A DNA stretch of 64,000 bases. It comes from an uncultured Actinomycetes bacterium. GTDB taxonomy: Bacteria > Actinomycetota > UBA4738 > HRBIN12. The notes under the pieces are model-generated. The model was given only the letters and a program-made list of their open reading frames with translations, did not search any database and was not told the DNA's origin. The position numbers were made by a program, and so were the translations under genes. The stretch spans positions 256,001-320,000 of the forward strand of contig CAVPIB010000004.1 in assembly GCA_963704885.1 (NCBI GenBank), read 5' to 3'. Shown here one piece after another: positions 4,913 to 64,000 of this stretch (the first letter of the stretch is position 1; each line of letters starts with the position of its first letter).

Positions 4913-4952
4913 GCCCGGAATATTACGGTCGCGGGTGCCCGGCGGCCGTTGG

Positions 4953-5785: not shown

Positions 5786-5873
5786 AGCTCCGTAATTACG
5801 TGGGTGTGGCGCTGAGCTTAGGTGGGCTCCCGGGGCCTGTCAACGGGGGGACACGACCTTCCCCCGTTCGGGG

Positions 5874-5900
5874 CTCAAGGAGGCCATGGGAGCCGCCGAT
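5874..5900 (+). promoter_or_regulatory. Putative FliA/WhiG (sigma-28 type) promoter
   Basis: CTCA-N17-GCCGAT, ending 47 nt upstream of the CAP gene ATG. Confidence 0.5.
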
Positions 5901-5947
5901 GGTCCCTAGACAGGAAGGACCACACCCGGATGTGCATAAGGGGCGAC

Positions 5948-6454
5948 ATGGGCAGCGAGCGCATACGAGATCGGCTCCATCCACGATCGGCGGTCGTCGC
6001 GACCGCGATCGCCGTCACGGTGCTCGTGGGCCTCATCCCCTCACCCGTTCGGGCGACCCCCCGACCTGCCCCCGTCGACACGCGGAGCGAAGTCGGAGCG
6101 GAGGCCTGGCAGCTCTTCCGTGCAACCAATGCGAGCCGTGGACGTTTCGATGTCCCCAAACTCAGACTGAACCGCGAGATGTCCCAGGTGGCACGGCGCC
6201 ACAGCCTGGCGATGGCCCGTGGAGGCGAGCTGTTCCACTCCGGCGACGTAGATGTCTACCTGAACGGGATCTCGTGGCACACCTGGGGCGAGAACGTCGG
6301 CTTCACCCCTGGAGGCGTGAAGAGCATCCAGGACGCCTTCATGAAGAGCGCACCTCACCGGACCAACGTGCTGAGCCGCGCGTTCCACCGCGTGGCGATC
6401 GGGGCGGTCAGGGTGGACGGCGTGTTGTGGGTGACGGTCTTCTTCTACGGCTGA
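5948..6454 (+). CDS. Secreted CAP (SCP-like) domain protein
   Basis: Signal-peptide-like N-terminus. Motifs TNASR, ARRHSLAMA, GENVG, FMKSAPHRTNVL and AIGAV. AAGGGG lies upstream of the ATG at 5948. Confidence 0.85.
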   Translation: MGSERIRDRLHPRSAVVATAIAVTVLVGLIPSPVRATPRPAPVDTRSEVGAEAWQLFRATNASRGRFDVPKLRLNREMSQVARRHSLAMARGGELFHSGDVDVYLNGISWHTWGENVGFTPGGVKSIQDAFMKSAPHRTNVLSRAFHRVAIGAVRVDGVLWVTVFFYG

Positions 6455-50307: not shown

Positions 50308-51228
50308 TCAAGCCAGGTCGAAGAGGAAGAGCAGGAGTGCCTTCTGCGTGTGCAAGCGGTTCTCGGCCTGATCCCACACGGCTGAGCGAGGGCCGTCGAT
50401 CACCTCGTCCGTTATCTCCATGCCACGATGGGCCGGGAGGCAGTGCAGGACCACGACCTCGGGAGAGGCCGTGCCCACGAGCTTCTCGTCGATCTGATAG
50501 CCGCGGAACACCAGCTCCCGCTCGTCTGTCTCGGCCTCCTGACCCATGCTTGCCCAGACGTCCGTGTACAGAACATCGGCATCGCGGGCCGCGTCCATGG
50601 GATCGTGAAGCACCTCGACGGCCCCACCGGTCTCCGAGGCGATCTCCGCGGCCCGGTTGACCACTTGTGGGATGGGCTCGAAGCCCGGAGGCACTGCCAC
50701 CCGCACCCGCATGCCTACCTTCGCGCCCGCCAGCAGGAGCGAGTGGGCCACGTTGTTCCCATCGCCTAGATAGCTGAGCGTTCGACCATCCAGGCCACCC
50801 AGACGCTCCCGAACGGTGAACAGGTCTGCGAGCGCCTGGCAGGGATGTTCGAAGTCGGAAAGGGAATTGATCACGGGGATAGTCGCCGCCGAAGCCAGCA
50901 GCTCGAGTCGCTCCTGCTCGAAGGTCCGCAGGACGATGGCGTCGACGTATCGGCTGAAGACGCGGCCTGTGTCCTCGATCGTTTCGCCGCGACCGAGTTG
51001 CAGGTCGGAGGAGGAGATCACGAGCGGATGGGCACCCAACTCCGCCACGCCCACCTCGAAGGACACGCGGGTCCTCGTAGAGGGCTTCTCGAAGACGAGC
51101 GCTACGGAGCGACCCCGCAGCCGGTCGGCGTATGCGGCCGGATCCGCCTTGACACGTTCGCCCAGGTCCAGGATCGCGATGAGCTCCGAGGGAGACAGAT
51201 CGTCGACCGACAGGTAGTTGCGTGCCAT
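50308..51228 (-). CDS. argF: Ornithine carbamoyltransferase
   Basis: FEKPSTRT, HPCQALAD, TDVWASMG, HCLPAHRG. Confidence 0.96.
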   Translation of the reverse strand: MARNYLSVDDLSPSELIAILDLGERVKADPAAYADRLRGRSVALVFEKPSTRTRVSFEVGVAELGAHPLVISSSDLQLGRGETIEDTGRVFSRYVDAIVLRTFEQERLELLASAATIPVINSLSDFEHPCQALADLFTVRERLGGLDGRTLSYLGDGNNVAHSLLLAGAKVGMRVRVAVPPGFEPIPQVVNRAAEIASETGGAVEVLHDPMDAARDADVLYTDVWASMGQEAETDERELVFRGYQIDEKLVGTASPEVVVLHCLPAHRGMEITDEVIDGPRSAVWDQAENRLHTQKALLLFLFDLA

Positions 51229-51239
51229 CGGCGGCGAGT

Positions 51240-53615
51240 CTATACCGACGCCGACCTGATCTCTCCGCCGAACCGTTCGCGTATCTGCGACACGATCCGC
51301 TCCACCGCTTCATCCGCTTCTTGACTCTCCAGCGTGCGCTCGGATGCACGCAGATCCAGCGCGAAGCTCAGGCTCTTCTTCCCTGCTTCGAGTGGCGGAC
51401 CCGACCAGACGTCGAAGAGCTCACAGGCTGCCAAGAGATCGCCACCCGCCTTGCGGATGGCGCGCAGGACCTCGCCGGACGCCACCTCTTCATCGAGCGC
51501 GAAGCTCAGGTCCCTGCGGACGGGGGGGAACCGGGGGACATCGCGAACCGCGATGGTCGACGGAGCGCTGCCGAGCAGCGCGGCCAACTCGACCTCGCCC
51601 ATGGCGATGCGGCCGGGGACATCAAGGGAGTGCGCAACCCTCGGGTGGATCTCGCCGACGACCCCGGCCCGCTCACCGCCAACCATGACGAACGCGGACC
51701 GGCTTGGATGCAGAGGGGAACCTACCGGCTCCCCCAGCGACCACTCGACGCCGAGGTCGCGCATGAGAGCCTCCACGACCCCCTTCGCGTCGAAGAAGTC
51801 GTACTCCCGTCGGCCCGTCCATCCCACCTCTGCCATCCCGGTCATCGCGAACGCCACCTTCGAGCGCTCCTCAGGCACACCCCCAACGAGGCGGAAGACG
51901 GTCCCGACCTCGAACAAGGCCGCGCTCCTCACTTGCCGGTAGACGTTCCGACGGAGCGCTTTCAGCAGTCCCTGAGTGAGGCGGGTCCGCAGCCACCTCT
52001 CCTCGGCCTGCAAGGGATTCGCTATGGCGATGGCATCGGCATCACCGGTGAGCTCCAGGTCCTGGTCGGAAGCGAACGGGAACGAGCGGATCTCCCTCAG
52101 GCCGGCACGCATGAGCGACCCTTGAACGCGCTCTCGGAACGCGTAGTCACGGGGCGTCCCGCCCGCCTGACGCACCGCCGGAGTGGTGGAACCGACGCGC
52201 TCGTACCCCTGGACCCGAACGACCTCTTCGATCAGGTCGACCTCTCGCTCGATGTCGACGCGGTATCCAGGAACCTCCACAGTGACCTCGTCTCCGTGGG
52301 TCTCGGACGGCATCATCAGCCGGTTGAAGACCGCCACGGCGTCCGTCGCCGCGACGTCGTAGCCGATCAGCGAGGACGCGCGGCTCGCACGCATCGTGAC
52401 GCGACGCCGCTCGGGGGCGGCCCCCACGTCGATCGTGCCCGCGAGCACCTGCGCTCCGCACCACTCGGCGATCAGGCGGGATGCTCTGTCAGCGCCGACG
52501 GTCACCCCCTCTGGGTCGACTCCGCGCTCGAACCGCATCGAGGCCTCTGTCGACAACGCGATCCGCCGGCGCGTCCGTTGGATGCCACCACGTTCGAACG
52601 CCGCGGCCTCCAGCAGGATGTCCGTGGTGCCGTCGGAGACCTCCGCGAGGGCACCTCCCATCACCCCCGCGACCCCCAGCGGGCGCTCGGTGTCGCAGAT
52701 CAGGAGATCATCGGGTGTGAAGGTCCTTTCGACGTCGTCGAGCGTCACCATCCGCTCCCCATCGGTCGCCCGACGCACGACGATCCCCGGTCCCTTCAGG
52801 AGGGCCAGATCGAACGGGTGGAGCGGTTGCCCGATCTCGATCATCGCGTAGTTCGTGGCGTCCACGGCCGCCGATATCGGGCGCATCCCCGCGGCGGTCA
52901 GACGTGCTTGGATACGGATGGGAGACGCCGTGTGCTGGACGTTCCTTAGGATCCGCGCGGTGTAGCGAGGACACCCGAAGCTGTCGAGGACCTCTACGGT
53001 AGCGACGTCTTCGGTCCGCTCGTCGCCCTCACGCACATCGATATCAGGCGACGTATACGGGACACCTGTCGCCGCAGCAACCTCCCGCGCCACGCCGATC
53101 ACGGACAGGAAGTCCGGTCGGTTGGGGGTAACCTCGATATCAAGCACCGCGTCGTCCAGTCCGAGGGACGACTTGAGATCGTCACCGGGCGTCATGTCCG
53201 CCGGCAGCAAGAGGATGCCCTCGTGCGTCGGGGCGATCCCCAGCTCCATCGGCGAACAGAGCATGCCTTCGGATATGACTCCCCGGATCTCTCGTGCAGC
53301 AAGCGGGGCGGGCAACGCGGGCACGCGCGCGCCCGGACCGGCGAGTGGGACCAGGTCGCCGGGCCGCATGTTCCGGACGCCCACGACCACCTCTCGCTCG
53401 GACGATCGCGTGGAGACCCGCGCAAGACATAGCTTGTCTGAACCTGGATGGTCGCGGACCTCCAGGACCGTGGCGACCACGACTCCTTCCAACCCGTCCC
53501 AGGGCCGATCGATCCGCTCTACCTCCGCGCCCTTCGCGGTAAGGATCTCGGCCAGCTCCTCGGCCGACAGCTCCGTCGGGCAGAACTCGCGCAACCACGA
53601 CAGGACGACTTTCAC
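51240..53615 (-). CDS. pheT: Phenylalanyl-tRNA synthetase beta subunit
   Basis: VLSWLREF, SEGMLCS, VTPNRPD, RFERGVD, DLIEEVVR. GTGA overlap with the pheS stop. Confidence 0.95.
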   Translation of the reverse strand: MKVVLSWLREFCPTELSAEELAEILTAKGAEVERIDRPWDGLEGVVVATVLEVRDHPGSDKLCLARVSTRSSEREVVVGVRNMRPGDLVPLAGPGARVPALPAPLAAREIRGVISEGMLCSPMELGIAPTHEGILLLPADMTPGDDLKSSLGLDDAVLDIEVTPNRPDFLSVIGVAREVAAATGVPYTSPDIDVREGDERTEDVATVEVLDSFGCPRYTARILRNVQHTASPIRIQARLTAAGMRPISAAVDATNYAMIEIGQPLHPFDLALLKGPGIVVRRATDGERMVTLDDVERTFTPDDLLICDTERPLGVAGVMGGALAEVSDGTTDILLEAAAFERGGIQRTRRRIALSTEASMRFERGVDPEGVTVGADRASRLIAEWCGAQVLAGTIDVGAAPERRRVTMRASRASSLIGYDVAATDAVAVFNRLMMPSETHGDEVTVEVPGYRVDIEREVDLIEEVVRVQGYERVGSTTPAVRQAGGTPRDYAFRERVQGSLMRAGLREIRSFPFASDQDLELTGDADAIAIANPLQAEERWLRTRLTQGLLKALRRNVYRQVRSAALFEVGTVFRLVGGVPEERSKVAFAMTGMAEVGWTGRREYDFFDAKGVVEALMRDLGVEWSLGEPVGSPLHPSRSAFVMVGGERAGVVGEIHPRVAHSLDVPGRIAMGEVELAALLGSAPSTIAVRDVPRFPPVRRDLSFALDEEVASGEVLRAIRKAGGDLLAACELFDVWSGPPLEAGKKSLSFALDLRASERTLESQEADEAVERIVSQIRERFGGEIRSASV

Positions 53616-54658
53616 GCCACGCCCTCGAACTGCTCCAGGAAGCGGACGTCCCCTTCGACGAAGAGACGCATGTCGGGTACGCCGTACCGGATCATGGCCA
53701 CCCTTTCGATCCCCAACCCGAACGCGAATCCTGTGTAACGCTCGCTGTCGTATCCGCAGTTCTCGAGGACCTTCGGGTGGACCATGCCGGCGCCGAGTAG
53801 CTCGATCCAGCCGTTGCCGCACGTCCGGCATCCCGCGCCGTCGCAGACGAAGCACGACACCGCCACCTGCGCGCCCGGCTCGACGAACGGGAAGTAGTCG
53901 GGGTTGAGCCGAACACGTCGGTCTGCGCCGAACATCTCGCGCGCGAACGCCTCGAGCGTGCCCTTCAGATCGGCGAACGAGATCCCCTCATCGACCGCCA
54001 GGCACTCCACCTGATGGAATACCGGCAGGTGCGTGGCATCCGGCGTCTCCTGGCGGAACACGCGTCCGGGACACACGATGTGGATGGGGGGGCCCTCGGC
54101 CTCCATCGTTCTGATCTGAGCTGCCGACGTCTCGGTGCGGAGCAGCATCCCCGGCAGGTCGATGTAGAGCGAATCCTTCATGGTTCGGGCCGGGTGGTCG
54201 GGCGGGATGTTCAACGCCTCGAAGTTGTGCCAGTCATCCTCGATCTCAGGGCCCTCGACGACCCGGTAGCCCATCCGCGTGAAGACCTCGACGATGCGTC
54301 GTTCGACGATGGCAAGAGGATGGAGCGAGCCGTTGGGCGGTCGCCTGCCGGGGAGAGAAACGTCCACAGCATCTGCCTCGAGCAGATGAGCTTCCGCGCT
54401 GATCTCGAGATCGGTGCCGCGTCGCTCGATCGCGGTGTGCAACGCATCACGAGTCTCATTCGCCAGTGCGCCCAGTGCCTTGCGGTCGTCATGGTCGAAG
54501 CTCCCCAGCGCCCTCTGTACCTCGGAGAACCGCGTCTTACGCCCGAGCACGGCGACCCTCGCCGCGTCGAGCTCATCACGCGTGCCCGCAGCGGCCACGG
54601 CCGCCAAGCCTCGTGTTCGTTCTTCCTCAAGGATCGAGCGTGCCTGCTGAGGGTCCAT
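53612..54658 (-). CDS. pheS: Phenylalanyl-tRNA synthetase alpha subunit
   Basis: NFEALNIPPDHPAR, FHQVE, FPFVEP, GFAFGLGIER. Confidence 0.96.
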   Translation of the reverse strand: MDPQQARSILEEERTRGLAAVAAAGTRDELDAARVAVLGRKTRFSEVQRALGSFDHDDRKALGALANETRDALHTAIERRGTDLEISAEAHLLEADAVDVSLPGRRPPNGSLHPLAIVERRIVEVFTRMGYRVVEGPEIEDDWHNFEALNIPPDHPARTMKDSLYIDLPGMLLRTETSAAQIRTMEAEGPPIHIVCPGRVFRQETPDATHLPVFHQVECLAVDEGISFADLKGTLEAFAREMFGADRRVRLNPDYFPFVEPGAQVAVSCFVCDGAGCRTCGNGWIELLGAGMVHPKVLENCGYDSERYTGFAFGLGIERVAMIRYGVPDMRLFVEGDVRFLEQFEGVA

Positions 54659-54688
54659 CAGGCCGCCGAGTCTAACAAGGCACCCTGT

Positions 54689-56119
54689 TCAGCCTGCCTG
54701 CGGTAGAGGCAGCTCGAGATGGAACGACAGTCGCCCCCCGTCGACCTCCCCCCACGCGCGCCCTCCCTGTGCCCGCGCGACCCCTCGGGCGACGAACAGG
54801 CCTATCTTGCTGCCCGATCCCGTCCCCGGGCGACGCGCCACGAACAGCCCCTCCACGTCGTCGGGCGTGAGGTCGGTCCCGTCGCGCCAGACGCGGAGCC
54901 GCAGGACGTCGCCATCGCGCTCCCCGTCGATCGCGATCGGCCCCTCGCGTCCCCACCACACGAGCGCCTCAACGAACGAGAGCAGCGCCGACTTCAGCCG
55001 CGCGGGATCCACCACCAACGACCCGCCGGTTCCCAGCCACCGGATCTCCGGGTGCTCGGGGTCTCGACGCTGCGACTCGATGATGGTCTCGGCGAGGTCG
55101 GAGAGTTCGACCCGCTCGGGGAACATCTCCAGCGTGCCGGCCGCCACCCGGCCCGCATCGACCAGTAACCGGAGGATCGTGTCCATCCGATCAGCATCGA
55201 ACACGATACCCTGCAGCATCAGCGAACGCTGCTCGGGGGTCATCGACTCCCATCGCTTCTCCAGGGCGTACCCGAACCCCTTCATGGCGGTCAGCGGCGA
55301 ACGGATATCGTGAGCGGCCGCCGCGACGATGGTCTCTAGCGGGACGGCGCCGCTGCGGTGTTGGCGTGCCCATTCGAACAGACACACAGTGGCGGCGGCC
55401 GCGAGGTTCAACGACTCGGCCTTACCGCGGTGTGGGATGCGAACGGTCCCGTCGACGGCCTTCAAGACCTCGGACGGCAGTCCATGAGCCTCGTTGCCGA
55501 AGACGAGGGCCAAGGGGCCACCCAGATCTGTTGCGTACAGATCGTCGGCTCCCCTGGCATCCATCGCGAGGATCCGCCGACCTTGCTCATGAGCCAGCTC
55601 CAGCACCTCCAGGGTGGGAACGGCCCTAGCGATCGGCAGATGGAAGACGGATCCGGCCGAGGAACGCACCGTCTTGGGGTTGTAGACGTCTACCGAGCTC
55701 GAGGTGAAAACGATCCCGGACGCGCCGGCGGCGTCGCAGGAGCGCAGGACCGTCCCCGCGTTGCCCGGGTCACGCACCTCGTGGAGGACAACGAGACAAC
55801 CGTCGGTCGGCAGAGTCTCCAAGGCGGTGTCGACGAATGCCGCGATCCCGACGATCCCTTGAGGCGTTACCGTCGACGTCAGCTTGGCCATGACGTCGGC
55901 ACTGACCGCGTGGACCTCTACTCCTTGTTGCCGCGCCCGGATAGCGAGGGGATCCGACGCGTCGCCGACGAAGAGCTCTCTGAGATGGCCGGGTTGTTCG
56001 AGCGCCTCGCCGACGCCCTGAGCGCCCTCGACCAGGAAGCGGCGATCCTCCTCGCGGAACGCACGCTTCTTCAGGCGAACGGCGGCGGCGACCTTCGGGT
56101 TCTTTGCGGACGTCAGCAC
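54689..56119 (-). CDS. SpoU/TrmH-family RNA methyltransferase fused to HisKA and a degenerate HATPase_c domain (476 aa)
   Basis: SPOUT motifs FLVEG, DPGNAGTVLR, VFGNEAHG and AESLNLA are followed in frame by an H-box (AHDIRSPLTAMKG) and a GHKL-like C-terminus (GSKIGLFVARGVARAQGG). Confidence 0.9.
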   Translation of the reverse strand: MLTSAKNPKVAAAVRLKKRAFREEDRRFLVEGAQGVGEALEQPGHLRELFVGDASDPLAIRARQQGVEVHAVSADVMAKLTSTVTPQGIVGIAAFVDTALETLPTDGCLVVLHEVRDPGNAGTVLRSCDAAGASGIVFTSSSVDVYNPKTVRSSAGSVFHLPIARAVPTLEVLELAHEQGRRILAMDARGADDLYATDLGGPLALVFGNEAHGLPSEVLKAVDGTVRIPHRGKAESLNLAAAATVCLFEWARQHRSGAVPLETIVAAAAHDIRSPLTAMKGFGYALEKRWESMTPEQRSLMLQGIVFDADRMDTILRLLVDAGRVAAGTLEMFPERVELSDLAETIIESQRRDPEHPEIRWLGTGGSLVVDPARLKSALLSFVEALVWWGREGPIAIDGERDGDVLRLRVWRDGTDLTPDDVEGLFVARRPGTGSGSKIGLFVARGVARAQGGRAWGEVDGGRLSFHLELPLPQAG

Positions 56120-56201
56120 GGCATCCCATCGGGCTCGAGACGCCCGCAGTCTACGGCTGCAGCCGAGATGGAGGTGTGGGAAGCCCCGCCCGCGGGCGAG
56201 A

Positions 56202-56567
56202 TCAGCCGGCCGCTGGAAGGGCGGACTTGGCCGTTTCGACCAGCGAGGCGAACGCTGTCGGATCATTGACTGCGAGATCGGCGAGGATCTTCCGGTCCAC
56301 CTCGACCCCTGCGACCTTCAGCCCGTTCATGAACCGCGAGTACGGGATCCCGTGCGGGCGAACCGCCGCGTTGATCCGGGCGATCCACAGTCTGCGGAAC
56401 TGCGCCTTGCGGTCGCGTCGATCACGATAGGCGTAGTTGCCGGAGTGCATGACCTGTTCCTTGGCCACGCGGTAGCGCGTCCGACGACTCCCCGTGTAGC
56501 CCTTCGCTTTGGCCAGGACCTCACGGCGTTTCTTCTTCGCATGGACCGATCGTTTCACCCGTGCCAT
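56202..56567 (-). CDS. rplT: 50S ribosomal protein L20
   Basis: MARVKR...[25 protein letters not shown]. Confidence 0.97.
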
Positions 56568-56571
56568 CAGC

Positions 56572-56763
56572 TCACGCTCCCAGGAGGCGCTTGATCTTCT
56601 TGCGCTCGCCCTTCACCTCGGACATCCCTTCGACCCGGCGTCGCCGGCTCGAACTCTTCTTGGTCAGCATGTGGTTGCCTGTGGCCTTGCGATGGAGCAC
56701 CTTGCCGTTGCGGGTGATCCGGAACCGCTTGGCGGCCGAGCGATTCGTCTTCATCTTCGGCAT
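56572..56763 (-). CDS. rpmI: 50S ribosomal protein L35
   Basis: MPKMKT...AKRFRIT..GK, H.LTKKS. Confidence 0.96.
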
Positions 56764-56768
56764 CATCG

Positions 56769-57323
56769 TTACCCTTCGTCGGACGCGGCCTCGGTGGAGC
56801 GGGGCTCGAGGTGCTTCTTGCTGGGCCCGATCACCATGACCATGTTCCGCCCTTCCTGCTTCGGCATCGAATCCACGACGATGCTTTCCCCAAGCTCCTG
56901 GATCAACCGGTCCAAGATCTTGCGACCGAGATCCGTGTGCGCCATCTCGCGCCCCCGGAACATGATCGTGATCTTGACCTTGGCGCCGGCCCGCAGGAAC
57001 CGCTCGACGTGGCCCTTCTTCGTGTCGTAATCGTGTCGGTCGATCTTCGGACGGAACTTGATCTCTTTGACTTCGACCCGCGACTGCTTCTTACGGGCCT
57101 CTTTCTGGCGGATGTCGCGTTCGTACTTGTACTTCCCGTAATCCATGATGCGGCACACCGGCGGATCGGCCTGCGGCGCAACCTCCACTAGATCCAGGTC
57201 CAGGTCTTTCGCCTGACGCAGCGCATCTTGGGTGGATACCACTCCGATCTGCGCGCCGTCGGCCCCCACCAGACGAACCTGTGGAGACCTGATCCGGTCG
57301 TTGATCCTCGGATCAGTCGAGAC
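56769..57323 (-). CDS. infC: Translation initiation factor IF-3 (probable GTC start)
   Basis: xSTDPRINDRIR...VRLVG, LDLVEVAP, MDYGKYKY, KEIKFRPKI, MFRGRE. Confidence 0.95.
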   Translation of the reverse strand, partial: VSTDPRINDRIRSPQVRLVGADGAQIGVVSTQDALRQAKDLDLDLVEVAPQADPPVCRIMDYGKYKYERDIRQKEARKKQSRVEVKEIKFRPKIDRHDYDTKKGHVERFLRAGAKVKITIMFRGREMAHTDLGRKILDRLIQELGESIVVDSMPKQEGRNMVMVIGPSKKHLEPRSTEAASDEG

Positions 57324-57342
57324 CCCGCATCACCTCTTTCAG

Positions 57343-57408
57343 AAAACAAGCACCGGTCGAGCCGGTGCGCGAAAGCGACAAGTCCTGCACTGCTGACCAG
57401 GAAGTATA
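57343..57408 (-). promoter_or_regulatory. infC-rpmI-rplT promoter and leader with a terminator-like hairpin
   Basis: TATACT at 57403-57408, then GCACCGG-CTCGA-CCGGTGC-TTGTTTT at 57343-57368. Confidence 0.6.
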
Positions 57409-57449
57409 GGCGTCGCCCCGGCTCCGTGTCGACGCCGGCCGAGCGGCCG

Positions 57450-57800
57450 TCACCAATCGGCCTCGAGCGGGCGCCCGTATGCATCTTCGAGCCGCTGCGA
57501 ATCGTCCTCGGTGGTGTAGCCGTAGGCGATCTCGAGGACCCGGCCACGCGTCACTCCCACGCACCGGATCCGATGCGTTTCCTCCGCGGCGACCATGAAT
57601 TCCTCACCGGGCTGAGCTTCCACTATCCGGTTGCCGATCTCGATGGTAAGCCCCGCATCCAGCACCACCCACATCTCGTCGCGCATCCGGTGGTAGTGCA
57701 CGCTCGTTTCCTGCCCCGGCTCGACGGTTATCACGCGCACGGAGGCCGGTTGGTTGAGGGCATGGGTCGCAACCTTGCCCCACGGTTTGTCGACTATCAT
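57450..57800 (-). CDS. Cupin protein (mannose-6-phosphate isomerase type II C-terminal-like)
   Basis: DKPWG, SVHYH..RDE.W, HRI, LEIAYG...EDD..RLEDAYGR. ATGA-coupled to ribH. Confidence 0.85.
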   Translation of the reverse strand: MIVDKPWGKVATHALNQPASVRVITVEPGQETSVHYHRMRDEMWVVLDAGLTIEIGNRIVEAQPGEEFMVAAEETHRIRCVGVTRGRVLEIAYGYTTEDDSQRLEDAYGRPLEADW

Positions 57801-58279
57801 CCGGCCTCCTGAGGTTCGGGCAGGTCGCTCATGAGCGAGACCATGGTGAGCACGGCGTCCGCCGCCTCCCATCCTTTGTTCCCGTGACGACCACCGGCTC
57901 GATCCTCGGCTTGAGCCATCGTTTCGACCGCAAGCACCTCGAAGATCACCGGAAGGCCTGTATCGCGTGCCACGTCGGCGATCCCCCGCGCGGCTTCGTT
58001 CGCCACGAGCTCGAAGTGCGCCGTCTCACCGCGAACGATCGCCCCCAGGCAGATCAGCCCGTCGTACCTGCCGCTCGAGGCCATCCGTCGAGCCACCGGC
58101 GGGATCTCGAAGGCACCGGGTACCCACGCGAGGTCGACGTCGGCCTCGCCCACACCCCGTGCCGATAGACCCGCCTGAGCCCCCTCTACCAGCTTGCTGG
58201 TGACGACGTCGTTGAATCGCGCGGCGACGATCCCGATGCGCCGGCCGCTCCCGTCTGGATCACCCTCGTACGTGTTCAC
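57797..58279 (-). CDS. ribH: Lumazine synthase
   Basis: [24 protein letters not shown]. Confidence 0.96.
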
Positions 58280-59553
58280 CGCTCCACCGTGGCACCCGTG
58301 ATGGGCATCGTCTCCGGTAGGTCGTCGAGGAGATGACCCATCTTCTCTCGCTTGGCTCGTAGGTACCCGATGTTCTCGGGCGTCGGGGCCGTCTGGATCG
58401 GGATCCGATCCGAGATCGACAATCCATACCCCTCGAGCCCCGCGCGTTTGGCTGGGTTGTTGGTGAGTAGGCGCATGCTTCGCACCCCCAGGTCGACCAG
58501 GATCTGCGCGCCGATACCGTAGTCGCGGGGATCGGCCGAGAAGCCCAGCTCCAGGTTCGCCTCGACGGTGTCCCGTCCCTGGTCCTGGAGCTCATAGGCG
58601 CGGAGCTTGTGCGTCAACCCGATCGCGCGCCCCTCGTGTCCCCGCACGTAGAGGACGACCCCTCGGCCTTCCTGAGCGACCATCTCCAAGGCCCGGTCGA
58701 GCTGTGCACCACAGTCGCAGCGAAGGGAGCCGAACACGTCTCCTGTTAGGCATTCCGAATGGACGCGCGTGAGCACCTCGGCGCCGTCGCCGATCTCACC
58801 GAGGACGAGGGCGATGTGCGTCCGGCCATCCACCAGACTCTCGAACGCGTAGGACCGGAACTCGCCGTGAGGGGTGGGGATGGTGGTCTCGGCGACCCTC
58901 GCTACCAGGACCTCGTGGGCCCTGCGGTATGCGATCAGATCCGCGATGGAGATGATCTTCAGACCGTGCGTCCTCGCGAATCCTACGAGATCGGGTAGAC
59001 GGGCCATCGTTCCATCGTCGTTGACCGTCTCGCACAAGACGCCGGCCGGGTAGAGCCCCGCCAGGCGAGCGAGATCAACCGAGGCTTCGGTGTGCCCGGC
59101 ACGTTTGAGTACTCCGCCCTCACGGTAGCGCAGAGGGAAGATATGCCCAGGTCGTGAGAGGTCCTCGGGTCCGGTGGCCGGATCGATAACCGTGCGGATA
59201 GTGGTGGCCCGGTCGGCGGCCGAGATCCCGGTAGTCACATCTCTCCTGGCGTCGATAGACACTGTGAACGCCGTCCGCTGATGATCCGTGTTGGCCGCCA
59301 CCATGAGGGGGATCTGGAGCTCGTCCAACCGCTCCCCCTCCACCGGCATGCAGATCACCCCGCTCGAATGCCGGACTATGAACGCGATAGCTTCCGGCGA
59401 AACCTTCTCGGCAGCCATGATGAGATCACCCTCGTTCTCGCGATCCGCGTCGTCGACCACCACCACGAGTCGTCCCGCTCTGATGTCGTCGACGGCCTCG
59501 GGGATCGACGCGAACACGGAACGATCGACGTCTGTCTGTGCGTGCTCGCTCAT
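58276..59553 (-). CDS. ribBA: DHBP synthase / GTP cyclohydrolase II
   Basis: [26 protein letters not shown]...RCDCG, LLTNNP.K. Confidence 0.96.
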
Positions 59554-61471: not shown

Positions 61472-62401
61472 TCAGGGCGCGCGGCGATCGATCGCGAACG
61501 AAGACCCGAGATCCCGTTTCGCGAACTGCTTCATCTCGGTCGCGACCGCTACCGCCTCGCCGTAGTGGGCGAAGCCGCGTCGGGCCGTGGTCGCGATGCC
61601 GACGGAGATCGCCACCAGGGGGACGTCCTGCATCTCTCCCTTACGGTCTTCCATCCGGATGAACCCACGCTCGAGGTCCTCGGCCTCGTAGAACTCGGTG
61701 CGCGCTTCGTCGAACCGTAAACAGATCCTCTGAGCGACCTGCTCCGCGACGTCAGGATCGACGACCGCGACGAAGTCGTCGCCGCCCACGTGGCCGACGA
61801 ACCCCTCTCCTGGATCGGACTCAACAACCGCGTCCTGGATTATCCGGGCAGTCGTCTGGATAACGCGGTCACCCCGGACGAAGCCTTTCTGGTCGTTGTA
61901 GGTCTTGAAGTTGTCCAGATCGCAGTACAAGACGGCGAAGGGTCGCGCCTCCCGCACCTGCCGCTCGATCTCCTCTTGGATCCTGATGTTCCCCGGAAGG
62001 CCAGTGAGCGGCGAGAGGTTGCGCATCTCCTTGGCTCGTCGAAGGGTGCCCTTCACGCGGGCCAGTAGCTCGATCGGATCGAAAGGTTTGATGATGTAGT
62101 CGTCGGCCCCCGACTGAAGACCAGTGACCTTGTCGGCCGACAGTGCTTTGGCGGTCAACATGATGATGCTGGTGTTCGCGGTCTGCGGGTTCTTCCGCAG
62201 GCGTTGGGCGACCTCGAACCCATCGATCCGCGGCATCATCACATCGAGCAGAACGAGGTCCGGGCGAAGCTCCGCGGCGCGCTCGAGCGCCTCCTCGCCA
62301 TCGCCCGCCACCGCCACGTTGTAGCCCGCGGATCGCAGGTTCACCTCGACGAACCGCGCGATGTCCGGATCGTCGTCGACGACGAGGATGGTCTCAGGCA
62401 C
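61472..62401 (-). CDS. Response regulator with a GGDEF-family domain (GGDDF motif)
   Basis: Receiver domain VVDDD, LLDVMMP, KPF. Output domain PLTGLPGN, DLDNFK.YND, GHVGGDDF. Confidence 0.9.
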   Translation of the reverse strand: MPETILVVDDDPDIARFVEVNLRSAGYNVAVAGDGEEALERAAELRPDLVLLDVMMPRIDGFEVAQRLRKNPQTANTSIIMLTAKALSADKVTGLQSGADDYIIKPFDPIELLARVKGTLRRAKEMRNLSPLTGLPGNIRIQEEIERQVREARPFAVLYCDLDNFKTYNDQKGFVRGDRVIQTTARIIQDAVVESDPGEGFVGHVGGDDFVAVVDPDVAEQVAQRICLRFDEARTEFYEAEDLERGFIRMEDRKGEMQDVPLVAISVGIATTARRGFAHYGEAVAVATEMKQFAKRDLGSSFAIDRRAP

Positions 62402-63063
62402 TAGGCGGCCTCCCCGCGCGCGATCGCCGCGAGTTCCCTGGCGGCCTGCGCCGGATCCGGAGACCTGAACAGCGCCGACGCCGCCACGAGGACCGTAGCC
62501 CCGGCATCCACCGCACGCTTCGCGTTGTGGGCCTTCACGCCGCCGTCGATCTCGATCGCGGTGTGAAGGCCCCGGCGCTCCACTTCGTCCCTAGCTGCTT
62601 CCAGACGCGGATAGATCTCCGGGTTCAGCTCTTGCCCTGCCCATCCGGGCCTGATGCTCATGAGCATCAGGTCGTCCAGCTCTTCTAGGTGAGCGAACGA
62701 CGCCTCGACGCGAGTCTCGAGGTTGAGCGTCATCCCCACCCGCAATCCGGCCCCACGCGCCTTCGCGATGATGGGCGCCGGATCGTCTACGGCCTCGTGG
62801 TGGAACGAGACGATATCCAGTCCTGCCTCAGCCAGCTCGTCGAACAGCCCCTCAGGCGATTCGACCATCAGGTGCCCGTGCAGGACGAGGTCCGTCACGG
62901 GTCTCAGCGAGGCCACTACCACCGGTCCGATCGTTATCGGCGGCACGAAATGAGCATCCATGATGTCGATGTGGATGGCTTCGGCATAGGGTTCGATCAG
63001 CTTGACCTGATCGGCCAGATGGGCGAAGTCGGCAGCCAGGATCGATGCGGAAAGCGTGGCCAT
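62401..63063 (-). CDS. rpe: Ribulose-phosphate 3-epimerase
   Basis: SILAADF, HIDIMDAHFVP, HLMV, IEIDGG. Confidence 0.95.
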   Translation of the reverse strand: MATLSASILAADFAHLADQVKLIEPYAEAIHIDIMDAHFVPPITIGPVVVASLRPVTDLVLHGHLMVESPEGLFDELAEAGLDIVSFHHEAVDDPAPIIAKARGAGLRVGMTLNLETRVEASFAHLEELDDLMLMSIRPGWAGQELNPEIYPRLEAARDEVERRGLHTAIEIDGGVKAHNAKRAVDAGATVLVAASALFRSPDPAQAARELAAIARGEAA

Positions 63064-63085
63064 CGCCGCGTATCGTACCCGCCGG

Positions 63086-64000
63086 TCACTGGCGTTTCGT
63101 GAAGGCTGCCACGAACATCCCGTCCGAACCGTGCCGATGAGGCCACAGTCGCAGACGAGGAGCGGGGCCGTCCGGTCCCTGGATCGTGACCGGCTGCAGC
63201 TCGGGGCGATGGCGGACGAGCGCGTCGCAAACCGCGTCCGTCTCGGCTCGAGGGAACGTGCACACGGAGTAGACGAGGCGGCCGCCCGGATCCAGAGCAT
63301 CGGCCGCGGCCGCCGCGATGCGGACCTGGAGCTTGGCGAGCCTCGATAGCTCGGCCCTCTGTGGCCGCCAGAGCAATTCCGGGCGTCTACGTGCCGACCC
63401 GATCCCCGAGCACGGGGCGTCCACGAGGACACGATCGAATCCGTTCCGGAGCGCGGGCGCGGTGGCGTCTTGAGCGAACGCCAGGACCCGCACCCCCAGT
63501 CGCCGCGCGGTTCGGCGAACGAGAGCCACCCGCTCGGGGTGCACATCGCTCGCGACCACGCAACCCGACTCCCCGACCAGGCAGGCGGCATGGCAGGTCT
63601 TGCCGCCGGGAGCCGCACAGACATCGAATACACGGTCGCCCGGGCGGGGGGAGAGCGCAGACATGACGAACGCCGACGCCTGATCCTGGACGGCGAACCA
63701 CCCATCCGTGAAGCCGGGCAGCCGAGCGGGATCGCCGCCGTCCAGCAGGAGGCAGTCGGGGTGTAGAGCAGCGGGTCGGGGGTCGAGACCGCCCGCTCGA
63801 AGGGTCTCGCTCAGAGCGGAGACCGACGTTCGGCAGGTGTTCGTTCGGAGGCTGAGCCAACCACGCTCGCCGAGACCCTCTGCGGCGAGCTCCGCGTCGT
63901 CCCCCAGCAGCACGCGTAGTTCCCGTACCGCCCATGGCGCGAGCCCCGTTCTGGCCGAGACGTCCTCCTCCGCATCGCCCAGGGGTGGCGAAGGAGGATC
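63086..64000 (-). CDS. rsmB: 16S rRNA m5C967 methyltransferase RsmB/Sun, 5' end truncated by the window
   Basis: VQDQAS, DVCAAPGGKT, LVDAPCSG.G, LVYSVCT, DGMF. Confidence 0.92.
   Translation of the reverse strand, partial: DPPSPPLGDAEEDVSARTGLAPWAVRELRVLLGDDAELAAEGLGERGWLSLRTNTCRTSVSALSETLRAGGLDPRPAALHPDCLLLDGGDPARLPGFTDGWFAVQDQASAFVMSALSPRPGDRVFDVCAAPGGKTCHAACLVGESGCVVASDVHPERVALVRRTARRLGVRVLAFAQDATAPALRNGFDRVLVDAPCSGIGSARRRPELLWRPQRAELSRLAKLQVRIAAAAADALDPGGRLVYSVCTFPRAETDAVCDALVRHRPELQPVTIQGPDGPAPRLRLWPHRHGSDGMFVAAFTKRQ

What the first reader, a model, noticed from the sequence alone, without database searches (positions are those of the whole stretch)
54689..56119. RNA methyltransferase fused to a histidine-kinase-like module with a degenerate ATPase domain
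Seen: one unbroken 476-aa frame joins a complete SpoU/TrmH domain (ending FEWARQ near 55360) through about 10 residues to a DHp helix with an intact H-box (AHDIRSPLT, His codon 55310-55312). The GHKL-like domain that follows has lost the ATP-binding residues: the N-box reads SFVEALVWWG (no Asn), G1 reads WRDGTD instead of DxGxG, and G2 is distorted (GSKIGL). There is no PAS or transmembrane sensor domain and no adjacent response regulator. Known: a SpoU gene between rplT and pheS is common in actinomycetes, and ChpT and Spo0B are phosphotransferases with exactly this His-intact, ATPase-dead layout. From memory, some actinomycetes carry a separate kinase gene here, which needs checking. Inference: this could couple rRNA methylation, or SAM/ribosome status, to a phosphorelay, either as phosphorylation-controlled methylation or with the SPOUT domain acting as the sensor.
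Basis: partly seen in the sequence, partly recalled or inferred. Interest (0 to 1): 0.85.

Follow-up and report, generated by a model that had tools for sequence, protein, structure and literature searches.

The report
rRNA methyltransferase fused to dead kinase
A ribosomal-RNA methylating enzyme is joined in one protein to a histidine-kinase module that has kept its phosphorylatable histidine but lost its ATP pocket; related bacteria carry the same two parts as neighbouring or fused genes, which points to an undescribed link between ribosome modification and a developmental signalling pathway.

Summary
Window 54689-56119 (-) is one 476-aa gene: L30e-like RNA-binding domain, complete SpoU/TrmH (SPOUT) methyltransferase, six-residue linker, HisKA helices with an intact H-box (His270), then a HATPase_c-like domain without ATP-binding residues.

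It is not an artefact. By my count 133 of 151 genomes of this uncultured soil actinomycete class carry it full-length. Both halves have dN/dS of about 0.04-0.22. In 90 distinct orthologues His is kept in 89, the N-box Asn in 0, and the G1 Asp is Arg in all 90.

The kinase half descends from the orphan kinase that lies between the SpoU gene and pheS in other Actinomycetota; in Streptomyces that position is OhkA (SCO1596). Split forms (PAS-containing or minimal) and fused forms with an intact ATPase exist, and fusion arose more than once (AU p = 4.7e-5). OhkA's reported partner OrrA has a 75%-identical orthologue here with its receiver residues intact.

Best reading (about 0.5): a dimeric rRNA 2'-O-methyltransferase whose kinase-derived tail cannot autophosphorylate and acts on OrrA as phosphatase, phosphotransferase or binder, with the SPOUT domain as input. 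No function was tested.

The parts
54689..56119 (-). Whole gene: 476-aa SpoU methyltransferase fused to a pseudo-histidine-kinase (GTG start, stop codon included)
   Evidence: orthologues begin at the same position
55838..56101 (-). L30e-like RNA substrate-binding domain (residues 7-94)
   Evidence: Pfam MRM3-like_sub_bind 59.9 bits and SpoU_sub_bind 37 bits
55355..55795 (-). SPOUT (SpoU/TrmH) catalytic knot domain, residues 109-255, with all three motifs (R116-D-P-G-N-A-G...R126; G208-N-E-A-x-G-L; E235-S-L-N)
   Evidence: Pfam 129.6 bits; motif residues kept in 88-90 of 90 orthologues; Foldseek TM 0.88 to RlmR 9h1k
55340..55354 (-). Short linker (residues 256-260) between the last SPOUT helix (239-254) and DHp helix 1 (261-289)
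   Evidence: AlphaFold2 secondary structure
55139..55339 (-). DHp / HisKA two-helix hairpin (residues 261-327)
   Evidence: Pfam HisKA 32.3 bits; helices 261-289 and 295-327; predicted four-helix-bundle dimer contacts 260-329
55310..55312 (-). Codon of His270, the phospho-acceptor position of the H-box AAAHDIRSP
   Evidence: His in 89 of 90, Asp271 and Arg273 in 90 of 90 orthologues
54707..55117 (-). CA-like (HATPase_c fold) domain without nucleotide-binding residues (residues 335-471)
   Evidence: Pfam HATPase_c 28.2 bits against a cut-off of 26.4; folded alpha/beta domain with block pLDDT mostly 87-96; Foldseek HK853 TM about 0.75
54950..54979 (-). N-box remnant SFVEALVWWG; the Mg-ATP Asn position (residue 385) is Ala
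   Evidence: position 385 is Ser 42, Ala 37, Asn 0 of 90; W388 in 87 and W389 in 83 of 90
54872..54889 (-). G1-box remnant WRDGTD; the adenine-binding Asp position is Arg412
   Evidence: Arg in 90 of 90 orthologues; aligned with D of DxGxG in intact relatives
54797..54814 (-). G2-box remnant GSKIGL (GxGLGL in intact relatives)
   Evidence: Lys438 in 82 (+5 Arg) of 90
56202..56567 (-). rplT (L20), upstream neighbour, 82 nt before the gene
56572..56766 (-). rpmI (L35)
56769..57269 (-). infC (IF3); a promoter-like site at 57403-57432 and a hairpin at 57350-57368 lie upstream
53612..54658 (-). pheS, downstream neighbour, 30 nt after the stop; no terminator-like site between
51240..53855 (-). pheT (ORF limits; true start is probably near the end of pheS)

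Best explanation
The gene encodes a homodimeric, bifunctional protein.

N-terminal half. This is an active SpoU/TrmH-type 23S rRNA 2'-O-methyltransferase. Its closest solved relatives are the A-loop enzymes RlmR (Um2552) and RlmP (Gm2553).

C-terminal half. The last knot helix of the methyltransferase runs, after a six-residue break, into a DHp four-helix bundle and a CA-like domain. These derive from the OhkA-type orphan histidine kinase that other Actinomycetota encode right beside this methyltransferase gene. In this class the nucleotide pocket has been rebuilt: Asn to Ser/Ala, Asp to an invariant Arg, Gly to Lys. The protein therefore cannot phosphorylate itself from ATP. The H-box His is kept.

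Inferred mechanism:
- The module still docks the OrrA-type NarL response regulator. It removes or accepts that regulator's phosphoryl group, that is, it acts as a phosphatase or by reverse phosphotransfer, which are the ATP-independent activities of a HisKA kinase.
- The SPOUT domain stands where a sensor (PAS) domain normally stands. Its state (SAM/SAH bound, or engaged with unmethylated pre-50S rRNA) sets the conformation of the His-bearing helices.
- The level of phosphorylated OrrA would thus report ribosome-assembly or methylation status.

Shown here: the architecture, conservation and selection, loss of the ATP motifs, descent from the neighbouring kinase, a dimer model, and the presence of an intact OrrA orthologue. 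Inferred: the partner, the phosphatase or transfer chemistry, and the direction of signalling.
For: (1) The fusion is real and conserved.
- All 120 best database hits carry SpoU_methylase plus HisKA.
- By my count of the rows, 133 of 151 class genomes have a match covering both halves, 129 of them without any stop.

(2) Both halves are under purifying selection. Over 28 pairs within the genus, dN/dS is 0.035-0.216 in the N half and 0.068-0.199 in the C half. The DHp is the most conserved part among the seven same-genus loci (84-89% identity against 70-78% in the methyltransferase parts).

(3) In 90 distinct orthologues:
- His270 in 89, Asp271 in 90, Arg273 in 90.
- N-box Asn in 0, G1 Asp in 0 (Arg in 90), Lys438 in 82.
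- This is a new conserved motif set, not decay.
- The SPOUT motifs are kept in 88-90.

(4) Descent from the neighbouring kinase.
- The order infC-rpmI-rplT-SpoU-[kinase]-pheS is found in a Streptomyces genome, in Acidimicrobiales, in G219 and in G500.
- The best hit of the C half in 5 of 5 such genomes is that neighbouring or fused kinase.
- All degenerate modules form one clade (SH-aLRT 100). Its sister is the minimal split kinase of G219 (support 83).

(5) The fusion is recurrent.
- 24 of 120 listed relatives of the G500 protein are SpoU fused to a kinase with an intact HATPase_c.
- These fall in several places of the kinase tree.
- One clade holding all fused forms is rejected (lnL difference 92.5, p-AU 4.7e-5).

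(6) The dimer model scores ipSAE 0.61, 0.61 and 0.62, against a best control of 0.01. Partner pLDDT is 83 and the runs agree in at least 90% of contacts. The tool's mark was reached by 20 of 30 solved homodimers and 1 of 23 solved monomers. The interface is continuous from the SPOUT domain (123-161, 228-255) into the DHp (260-329).

(7) A candidate partner exists.
- OhkA = SCO1596 pairs with OrrA = SCO3008 (review PMC9739842, passages).
- SCO1595 is pheS (PMC10771440).
- The regulator at the sco3008 position of a Streptomyces genome has a 75%-identical orthologue in this genome, against 45% for the next best hit. It lies in the same comF-hpf-orrA-secA order. Its residues D9, D10, D55, T83 and K105 are intact.

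(8) Co-occurrence in the phylum sample. OrrA is found in 59 of 63 genomes with a kinase next to the SpoU gene, against 7 of 45 genomes with the SpoU gene but no listed adjacent kinase.
Against: - No biochemical activity was tested.
- No complex with OrrA was modelled, because the single complex job went to the homodimer.
- The OhkA-OrrA pairing was seen only as summarised in a review; the primary papers were not available.
- The module is dispensable. Four class genomes have SpoU directly followed by pheS. The module was not found elsewhere in five SpoU-only genomes. OrrA persists in 3 of those 5.
- If the kinase is dead, the source of phosphate for OrrA in this class is unknown. No intact OhkA paralogue was found in the genome (best 38% identity).
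- The residue four positions after His is Ser (86 of 90), not the Thr or Asn of the classical phosphatase motif (motif recalled from memory). Intact relatives also have Ser.
- The dimer pass may reflect the model's memory of solved SPOUT and kinase dimers.
- Support for the sister relation to OhkA-type kinases is modest (83-87, quick tree).
- Genomes in the co-occurrence counts are kin, so the counts overstate independence. Only the 150 best kinase rows were listed, so adjacency is a lower bound.
Confidence: 0.5

Rival explanations
1. Structural or RNA-binding appendage. The kinase-derived module no longer signals. It serves only to stabilise the methyltransferase dimer, or its rebuilt, more basic former ATP pocket (Arg412, Lys438, Arg429) helps to hold rRNA or pre-ribosomes.
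For: - The new invariant or near-invariant basic residues lie exactly in the former nucleotide pocket.
- The module is fused to an RNA enzyme.
- It was lost cleanly in several lineages that keep the SpoU gene, so methylation does not need it.
- OrrA persists without it in 3 of 5 such genomes.
Against: - His270, Asp271, Arg273 and Pro275 are almost invariant, and the DHp is the most conserved region among close relatives. A mere dimer zipper would not need this.
- SPOUT enzymes already dimerise on their own (established knowledge; the interface is seen).
- The module is orthologous to a kinase with a known regulator partner that is itself extremely conserved here.
Confidence: 0.2
2. Reverse signalling of the DivL type. 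The dead kinase module reads the phosphorylation state of a response regulator (OrrA or another) and passes it backwards to switch the methyltransferase on or off. In this reading rRNA methylation is the output, not the input.
For: - A pseudokinase whose kinase domains act as a sensor of a phosphorylated regulator is described for DivL. I saw only the abstract of PMC4211667 in the listing.
- The rigid helical junction between the SPOUT domain and the DHp could transmit in either direction.
Against: - In the relatives with an intact ATPase, the SPOUT domain occupies the usual input position of an active kinase. This suggests that the ancestral flow was from SPOUT to kinase.
- The SpoU gene works without the module in lineages that lost it.
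- There is no evidence that rRNA 2'-O-methylation by this enzyme class is regulated.
Confidence: 0.15
3. Still an autokinase. ATP is bound in an unconventional way, or His270 is phosphorylated in trans by the catalytic domain of another kinase.
For: - The His and H-box are kept.
- The fold of the CA-like domain is kept, as are the G3-like Gly-Gly (G452 in 84, G453 in 88 of 90) and part of G2.
Against: - The two residues that GHKL ATPases need are absent in 90 of 90 orthologues: the Asn that holds Mg and the Asp that reads the adenine (their roles are recalled, established knowledge).
- They are replaced by conserved other residues.
- The HATPase_c score falls from about 90-97 bits in intact relatives to 28 bits here.
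Confidence: 0.1
4. Artefact: two genes joined by an assembly or sequencing error, or a decaying pseudogene tail.
For: A few relatives are broken: G001 is in three pieces, L103 stops at residue 281, and four class genomes have one in-frame stop.
Against: - The same uninterrupted frame is found in 129 of 151 class genomes from many independent assemblies and in more than 100 metagenome protein clusters.
- dN/dS is far below 1 in the tail.
Confidence: 0.01

Closest known systems
OhkA (SCO1596) / OrrA (SCO3008), orphan two-component pair of Streptomyces coelicolor
   Same: - The kinase module occupies the same genomic slot, between the SpoU gene and pheS.
- It is the best hit of that kinase in Streptomyces genomes.
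- It shares the family signature after the His, RSPLT.xKGF...L..[RK]W[DE]..[ST].[DE]Q[KR].
- An OrrA orthologue of 75% identity, in the same hpf-orrA-secA context, is present.
   Different: - There is no PAS domain.
- It is covalently fused to the methyltransferase.
- The ATP-binding Asn and Asp are lost in the whole class, so it cannot be an autokinase as OhkA is assumed to be.
- Identity of the module to the Streptomyces protein is only about 29%.
- Streptomyces phenotypes (antibiotics, aerial hyphae) need not apply to this uncultured lineage.
RlmR (Thermus thermophilus, Um2552) and RlmP/YsgA (Bacillus subtilis, Gm2553), SPOUT 23S rRNA A-loop 2'-O-methyltransferases
   Same: - They are the best structural matches of the N-terminal half: 9h1k with TM 0.88 and 34% identity, 7qiu with TM 0.87 and 31%.
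- They have the same L30e-like plus knot architecture and the same motifs. Their functions are as listed in Table 1 of PMC12123411.
   Different: - The target nucleotide here is unknown.
- No NCBIfam equivalog reached its cut-off (best RlmB model 126 bits against 160).
- None of the solved enzymes carries a kinase-like tail.
ChpT and Spo0B histidine phosphotransferases (recalled from memory)
   Same: They are kinase-derived dimers with a phosphorylatable His on a four-helix bundle and a CA-like domain that no longer binds ATP. That is the functional layout proposed here.
   Different: - No sequence or fold match to them came up: no such Pfam family, and none among the listed Foldseek matches.
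- This module is a HisKA/OhkA derivative that arose independently, and it is fused to an enzyme.
DivL pseudokinase of Caulobacter
   Same: It is a histidine-kinase-like protein that no longer works as a kinase and uses the kinase domains to read a response regulator. I saw only the abstract of PMC4211667 in the listing.
   Different: - DivL has lost the His (a Tyr in its place, recalled from memory), whereas here the His is kept and the ATP pocket is lost.
- DivL has PAS domains and no enzyme fusion.
SpoU-kinase fusions with an intact ATPase (G500/L010, P0198 and 22 further clusters), and the split minimal kinase of G219 and its family
   Same: They have the same two parts in the same order and the same genomic slot. 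G219's 227-aa sensor-less kinase is the sister of the degenerate clade.
   Different: - Their HATPase_c scores 90-97 bits, with Asn, DxGxG and GxGLGL present.
- Their linkers are 10-20 residues longer.
- They come from other lineages, for example within the Acidimicrobiales kinases.
- None is described in the papers I could search.

Membership tests
SpoU/TrmH family of SPOUT RNA 2'-O-methyltransferases | Sequence match to the SpoU_methylase profile above the curated cut-off | tested here: met
   129.6 bits against 29.7
SpoU/TrmH family of SPOUT RNA 2'-O-methyltransferases | Three conserved motifs that form the SAM-binding knot and carry the catalytic Arg/Asn/Glu-Ser residues | tested here: met
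   R116 89, D117-N120 90, R126 90, N209 88, E210 89, E235 88, S236 88, N238 88 of 90 orthologues; invariant in A1
SpoU/TrmH family of SPOUT RNA 2'-O-methyltransferases | Knotted alpha/beta fold and homodimer through the knot helices | tested here: met
   In silico only: Foldseek TM 0.82-0.89 to solved SpoU enzymes; predicted dimer contacts 123-161 and 228-255
SpoU/TrmH family of SPOUT RNA 2'-O-methyltransferases | SAM-dependent ribose methylation of a defined RNA nucleotide | not testable with these tools
   Target unknown; no NCBIfam equivalog above its cut-off
Catalytically competent HisKA-type histidine kinase | DHp domain with H-box His | tested here: met
   HisKA 32.3 bits against 26.9; His270 in 89 of 90
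Catalytically competent HisKA-type histidine kinase | HATPase_c (Bergerat) fold | tested here: met
   28.2 bits against 26.4; confident alpha/beta model; HK853 TM about 0.75
Catalytically competent HisKA-type histidine kinase | N-box Asn that holds Mg-ATP | tested here: not met
   Asn in 0 of 90; Ser 42, Ala 37; aligned with the N of ENA in intact relatives
Catalytically competent HisKA-type histidine kinase | G1 box DxGxG, with the Asp contacting adenine | tested here: not met
   Arg in 90 of 90 at the Asp position
Catalytically competent HisKA-type histidine kinase | G2 box GxGLGL of the ATP lid | tested here: not met
   GSKIGL; Lys438 in 82 of 90 where intact relatives have Gly
Catalytically competent HisKA-type histidine kinase | Autophosphorylation from ATP | not testable with these tools
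   Needs the purified protein
OhkA (SCO1596) orthologous group | Gene position between the rplT-linked SpoU gene and pheS | tested here: met
   OhkA = SCO1596 and pheS = SCO1595
OhkA (SCO1596) orthologous group | Closest relative in other genomes is the kinase at that position | tested here: met
   5 of 5 genomes. In the reverse direction the intact G219 kinase ranks the module only 5th in this genome, because the module has diverged.
OhkA (SCO1596) orthologous group | Groups with OhkA-type kinases in a tree, apart from other kinases | tested here: inconclusive
   The degenerate clade joins the split G219 kinase (support 83) within a poorly resolved OhkA-type assemblage; the outgroup is not cleanly separated
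OhkA (SCO1596) orthologous group | N-terminal PAS domain | tested here: not met
   No PAS; the SPOUT domain stands in its place. PAS is present in the Streptomyces and Acidimicrobiales forms.
OhkA (SCO1596) orthologous group | Cognate regulator OrrA present | tested here: met
   75% identical orthologue next to hpf; physical pairing not tested
ChpT / Spo0B-type histidine phosphotransferases | Homology to those families | tested here: not met
   No such Pfam family at E <= 1; none among the listed Foldseek matches
ChpT / Spo0B-type histidine phosphotransferases | His on a dimeric four-helix bundle plus a CA-like domain that does not bind ATP | tested here: met
   (in silico)
ChpT / Spo0B-type histidine phosphotransferases | Phosphotransfer between receiver domains | not testable with these tools
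   Needs biochemistry

The most novel reading that the evidence does not exclude
Across Actinomycetota, the rplT-linked SpoU rRNA methyltransferase is the physical input of the OhkA-type orphan kinase. On this reading, the unknown signal of the Streptomyces development and antibiotic regulator OhkA/OrrA is the state of ribosome assembly or methylation. The output regulator OrrA is co-transcribed with the ribosome hibernation factor gene hpf. The fused, ATP-dead form in this class would be a derived version that works as a methylation-gated phosphatase or phosphotransferase. Repeated independent fusions of the two genes would then be the Rosetta-stone trace of that interaction.
Probability: 0.3. 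Interest if true: 0.85.

Novelty: new variant of a known kind. Interest (0 to 1): 0.7.

Why it matters
Two-component kinases and rRNA methyltransferases are both textbook families, but I found no described link between them. 'SpoU' + 'histidine kinase' + 'fusion' gave 29 papers, of which 10 were listed and none was on this by title. 'SPOUT' + 'HisKA' gave 2 unrelated papers. 'SCO1597' occurs in no held paper.

The comparative data give three things.

- A candidate signal for OhkA. The data give a testable hypothesis for what the orphan kinase OhkA senses; the passages I read name no signal. It could be tested in ordinary Streptomyces laboratory strains.
- A natural pseudo-kinase series. The forms run from split with PAS, to split minimal, to fused and active, to fused and ATP-dead. 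This series shows how a kinase becomes a pseudo-kinase while keeping its His.
- A marker and an annotation fix. The fusion is a class-wide marker protein of an uncultured soil actinomycete lineage. Public annotation calls it only 'TrmH family RNA methyltransferase', so the signalling half is hidden.

If the coupling is real, it would add ribosome modification status to the inputs of bacterial phosphorelays.

Tried and rejected
- **REC-GGDEF gene as the partner.** The gene at window 61472-62401 (-) is syntenic 5-9 kb upstream across the order and is 92-95% identical within the genus. However, it persists in 3 of 5 genomes that lost the module, and it was not found at E <= 1e-40 in G037, which has the fusion. 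Proximality alone is weak evidence, so I did not adopt it.
- **RNA leader or riboswitch in front of the gene.** No Rfam match at E <= 0.1 in 51000-58500. No terminator-like or promoter-like site lies between rplT, the gene and pheS.
- **An intact OhkA paralogue elsewhere in the genome that could phosphorylate in trans.** The best hit was 38% identical, which is the generic kinase level.
- **RlmE (FtsJ) in the genome,** to judge whether the SPOUT half could be the U2552 enzyme. There were only partial or weak FtsJ matches and only two SpoU genes. This is suggestive but not decisive, so the target is left open.
- **AU test on the full 59-row tree.** The script machine gave no answer twice. I ran it on a 27-row subset with the simpler LG+G4 model. 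The group was named after the tree was seen, which weakens the p-value.
- **Primary OhkA paper** (Lu 2011, PMC3133208): not held. Zheng 2021 was not seen. Both are known to me only through the review passages.
- **Homodimer prediction.** It passed. Because SPOUT and kinase dimers are textbook structures, I use it only to show that the two interfaces are geometrically compatible.
- **Reads across the junction.** I did not map them, since more than a hundred independent assemblies already answer that question.
- **Not available or not used.** Supplementary files were not requested; Figure S5 of the OrrA preprint may bear on OrrA's distribution.
Full report
**What is there**

On the minus strand, between rplT (56202-56567) and pheS (53612-54658), lies one open frame, 54689-56119, of 476 codons. 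Pfam finds five families above their curated cut-offs:
- two overlapping L30e-like substrate-binding models (residues 7-94)
- SpoU_methylase (109-248, 129.6 bits)
- HisKA (263-325, 32.3 bits against 26.9)
- HATPase_c (371-473, 28.2 bits against 26.4)

Nothing else appears at E <= 1, so there is no PAS, HAMP or other sensor family. No NCBIfam equivalog model reaches its cut-off; the best is the RlmB model at 126 bits against 160.

**It is a real, conserved gene**

- The 120 best hits in the large protein collection are 422-502 residues long and 64-100% identical. All 120 carry SpoU_methylase plus HisKA. Where named, they are called only 'TrmH family RNA methyltransferase' or 'rRNA methylases'.
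- Among 41 related genomes, 37 have a match spanning both halves without a stop. G040 and G031 are truncated, G001 is in three pieces, and G034 (61% complete) has none.
- The class holds a single order with eight families. In a sample of 151 of its genomes, 150 have a match. By my count of the rows, 133 cover residues 1-2 to 470 or beyond, 129 of them without any in-frame stop.
- Record titles name these organisms only as 'Actinomycetota bacterium' or 'uncultured Actinomycetes bacterium', once as 'Solirubrobacterales bacterium'. Many are MAGs whose isolate codes (SMAG, MFD, AC_, ContSoil) I read, partly from recall, as soil catalogues.
- I fetched 8 loci of the genus and 20 from other genera. 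I computed Nei-Gojobori dN/dS for the 28 pairs within the genus. The methyltransferase half gives 0.035-0.216 and the kinase-like half 0.068-0.199.
- In the seven same-genus loci the DHp is the most conserved segment: 84-89% identity, against 70-78% for the methyltransferase parts and 69-72% for the CA-like domain.
- The tail is thus under the same purifying selection as the enzyme.

**The ATP pocket is replaced, not decayed**

I extracted 99 orthologous frames and removed 5 duplicates. I then dropped two frames cut by contig ends (L098, L102), one broken (L103) and the non-class L010. That left 90 distinct full-length class proteins, which I aligned.

| Position | Expected in an active kinase | Found in 90 orthologues |
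|---|---|---|
| His270 | His | His in 89 |
| Asp271, Arg273 | H-box | 90 each |
| Pro275 | H-box | 88 |
| 385 (N-box) | Asn that holds Mg-ATP | Ser 42, Ala 37, Asn 0 |
| 412 (G1) | Asp of DxGxG | Arg in 90 |
| 436-441 (G2) | GxGLGL | G-S-K-I-G-L, Lys438 in 82 and Arg in 5 |
| 388, 389 | (variable) | Trp in 87 and 83 |

The roles of the Asn and the Asp are recalled, established knowledge of GHKL ATPases. Alignment with intact relatives shows that these are the homologous positions. The SPOUT motif residues are kept in 88-90 of 90.

So the module keeps its fold and its His. AlphaFold2 gives mean pLDDT 87.5, with helices 261-289 and 295-327 and an alpha/beta domain at 335-471. Foldseek matches HK853 at TM about 0.75. 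The canonical nucleotide site has been exchanged for a new conserved set of residues.

**Where the module came from**

In a sample of 401 genomes of the phylum, 140 have a match to the protein at E <= 1e-45. Outside the class all matches but two cover only the methyltransferase half. The two exceptions and other loci give a series:
- **Streptomyces genome G338.** Gene order infC-rpmI-rplT-SpoU (281 aa) - PAS-HisKA-HATPase_c kinase (381 aa, HATPase_c 96.8 bits) - pheS. Among the 120 listed hits of its kinase, every hit that carries a name is from Streptomyces or [Kitasatospora] papulosa, at 78-98% identity.
- **Four Acidimicrobiales records (L104, L106, L109, L112).** tblastn shows the same gene order in all four. 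The PAS-containing kinase with a 93.5-bit HATPase_c and its separate reading frame were checked in L106 and the separate frame in L104.
- **G219.** The SpoU gene is followed directly by a 227-aa kinase made only of HisKA and an intact HATPase_c (96.7 bits).
- **G500.** One fused 514-aa protein with an intact HATPase_c (89.7 bits).

Further observations:
- In 5 of 5 such genomes the best hit of the window's C-terminal half is this neighbouring or fused kinase.
- A search with the G500 protein lists 24 of 120 clusters that are SpoU-kinase fusions with HATPase_c. Its kinase half is 70-75% identical to unfused Acidimicrobiales PAS-kinases.
- A search of representatives with the C-terminal half found 28 proteins below 1e-30. 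All 10 full-length representatives that I scanned are fusions. One of them (P0198) has an intact ATPase at 90 bits.
- In a quick maximum-likelihood tree of 59 kinase modules, all degenerate modules form one clade (SH-aLRT 100, stem length 1.18). The minimal G219 kinase is its sister (support 83). The intact fusions fall in at least four other places, one nested among the Acidimicrobiales PAS-kinases (support 96).
- On a 27-row subset, a single clade of all fused forms is rejected (lnL difference 92.5, p-AU 4.7e-5). The caveat is that the group was defined after I had seen the tree.

The likely path to the window's gene is: loss of PAS, then loss of the stop codon between the genes, then loss of ATP binding once, at the base of this class. 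In the G205 genome the two genes are 1 nt apart.

The module was later deleted cleanly in some class members. SpoU is directly followed by pheS in G121, G094, G112 and G107. The module was not found elsewhere in those four or in G144.

**Link to a known system**

- A review states that OhkA is SCO1596. It describes OhkA as an orphan kinase that represses antibiotic production and promotes aerial mycelium. It says the partner is the orphan NarL-type regulator OrrA (SCO3008), found by phenotypic, transcriptomic and two-hybrid work (PMC9739842, passages).
- Another paper gives SCO1595-SCO1594 as pheS-pheT (PMC10771440, passages).
- OhkA is therefore the gene next to pheS, the slot seen in G338. 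I could not read the primary OhkA papers.
- A preprint places orrA (sco3008) beside mtrAB-lpqB (sco3013-11) (10.64898/2026.01.30.702861, passages).
- In G338 the order is mtrA-mtrB-lpqB-comF-like-hpf-[REC+GerE regulator].
- That regulator has a 75%-identical orthologue in the window's genome (C1:985045-985698), against 45% for the next best hit. It lies directly after hpf and before secA, in the same comF-hpf-orrA-secA order, with the hpf stop overlapping the orrA start. The receiver residues D9, D10, D55, T83 and K105 are all present.
- At E <= 1e-65, OrrA orthologues occur in 137 of 401 phylum genomes, one per genome, including 29 of the 31 class members sampled other than the window's genome.
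- I combined in a script. Of 108 non-class genomes with the SpoU gene, 63 have a listed OhkA-type kinase match within 1.5 kb, and 59 of those 63 have OrrA. Of the 45 without a listed adjacent kinase, only 7 have OrrA.
- A further 41 genomes have OrrA but no SpoU match at the threshold used, and 38 of these have a strong kinase match.
- These genomes are kin, and only the 150 best kinase rows were visible. The figures show a clear association, not an independent statistic. They include unpublished genomes.

**How it may work**

- The homodimer prediction gave ipSAE 0.61, 0.61 and 0.62, against 0.01 for the best of three controls. Partner pLDDT was 83 and the runs agreed in at least 90% of contacts. 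The tool's calibration was 20 of 30 solved homodimers and 1 of 23 monomers reaching the mark.
- The contacts run without a break from the SPOUT dimer interface (123-161, 228-255) into the DHp bundle (260-329).
- Both interface types are textbook. The pass mainly shows that one dimer can satisfy both interfaces, and that the last knot helix is mechanically coupled to the His-bearing helix.
- The SPOUT domain thus stands exactly where the PAS sensor stands in the unfused kinases. In several lineages an active kinase has this arrangement.
- I therefore commit to the following reading (confidence about 0.5). The N-terminal half is a working rRNA 2'-O-methyltransferase. The C-terminal half is an ATP-independent remnant of the OhkA kinase that still acts on OrrA, by phosphatase activity, reverse phosphotransfer or plain binding. 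The methyltransferase domain provides the input.
- The rivals are a purely structural or RNA-binding tail (0.2), reverse signalling to the methyltransferase (0.15), a non-canonical kinase (0.1) and an artefact (0.01).

Points against my reading:
- The module is dispensable in some lineages that keep OrrA (3 of 5).
- The source of phosphate for OrrA is unknown.
- The residue four positions after His is Ser rather than Thr or Asn.
- Nothing was measured.

**The methyltransferase half**

- Its best structural matches are RlmR of Thermus (Um2552; TM 0.88, 34% identity), a Sinorhizobium rRNA methyltransferase, RlmP/YsgA of Bacillus (Gm2553), AviRb and, further off, RlmB. Their functions are as tabulated in PMC12123411.
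- The genome has only two SpoU-family genes and no full-length RlmE-like match.
- An A-loop target is therefore plausible but not shown.

**Transcription context**

The gaps are 82 nt after rplT and 30 nt before pheS. No promoter-like or terminator-like site lies in them. A promoter-like site and a hairpin lie upstream of infC, and there is no Rfam match. This fits one transcription unit, infC-rpmI-rplT-gene-pheS-pheT.

**Novelty and verdict**

- The parts and the idea of a His-intact, ATP-dead kinase relative are known. The OhkA/OrrA pair is also known.
- I found no description of any of the following in the held literature: the fusion to a SPOUT methyltransferase, its recurrence, the phylum-wide neighbourhood of the two genes, or the class-wide rebuilt pocket.
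- I rate it a new variant of a known kind, with interest 0.7.

Noticed in passing
window 61472-62401 (-): A 309-aa REC-GGDEF protein. The GGDEF match covers only profile positions 5-114 of 161. It is unusually conserved (92-95% identity within the genus, 69-89% across the order) and keeps its place 5-9 kb upstream of the fused gene, before the riboflavin operon. A paralogue of about 60% identity exists in most genomes.
   Followed up: partly
G000 C1:984632-985698 (L120 965-2160); L119 6455-8209: The ribosome hibernation factor gene hpf and the OrrA-type regulator gene are adjacent, in the order comF-like - hpf - orrA - secA, both in a Streptomyces genome and in this deep-branching class. In this genome the hpf stop overlaps the orrA start. 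The regulator is 60-100% identical across 137 of 401 phylum genomes, which is very high for a response regulator.
   Followed up: partly
window 57350-57432 (-): A promoter-like site (TCGACA, 18 nt spacer, TATACT) is followed by a GC-rich hairpin with a T-rich tail, just upstream of infC. It may be a leader or attenuator of the infC-rpmI-rplT operon. No Rfam family matched.
   Followed up: no
window 62401-63705 (-): This 434-aa ORF has ribulose-phosphate 3-epimerase only in residues 218-413. A weak FtsJ-like methyltransferase match (27.6 bits) falls at window 63227-63646 on the same strand. The ORF is probably the end of an rsmB-like gene overlapping or running into rpe, not one protein.
   Followed up: no
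G001 C3:113075-114505; L103; G062, G152, G147, G071: A few relatives have the fused gene broken: three pieces in G001, a stop at residue 281 in L103, and single in-frame stops in four class genomes. Sequencing errors and real pseudogenes were not told apart.
   Followed up: no
G051, G107, G112 (genus g33, 1.3-1.6 Mb genomes): A reduced-genome genus of the same family has lost the kinase-like module and the REC-GGDEF gene, and no OrrA orthologue was found in the three at the thresholds used. It keeps the SpoU gene directly before pheS (loci checked for G107 and G112).
   Followed up: partly
L115 (G144) 3775-6033: In this SpoU-only relative about 2.2 kb of other sequence lies between the SpoU gene and pheS. 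I did not look at its content.
   Followed up: no
phylum sample, families f18 and f16: Two families have top-scoring OhkA-type kinases (up to 481 bits) and OrrA, but no SpoU match at E <= 1e-45. Either their SpoU gene is more diverged or the kinase stands without it there. Some f16 and f9 members have the PAS-less minimal kinase.
   Followed up: no
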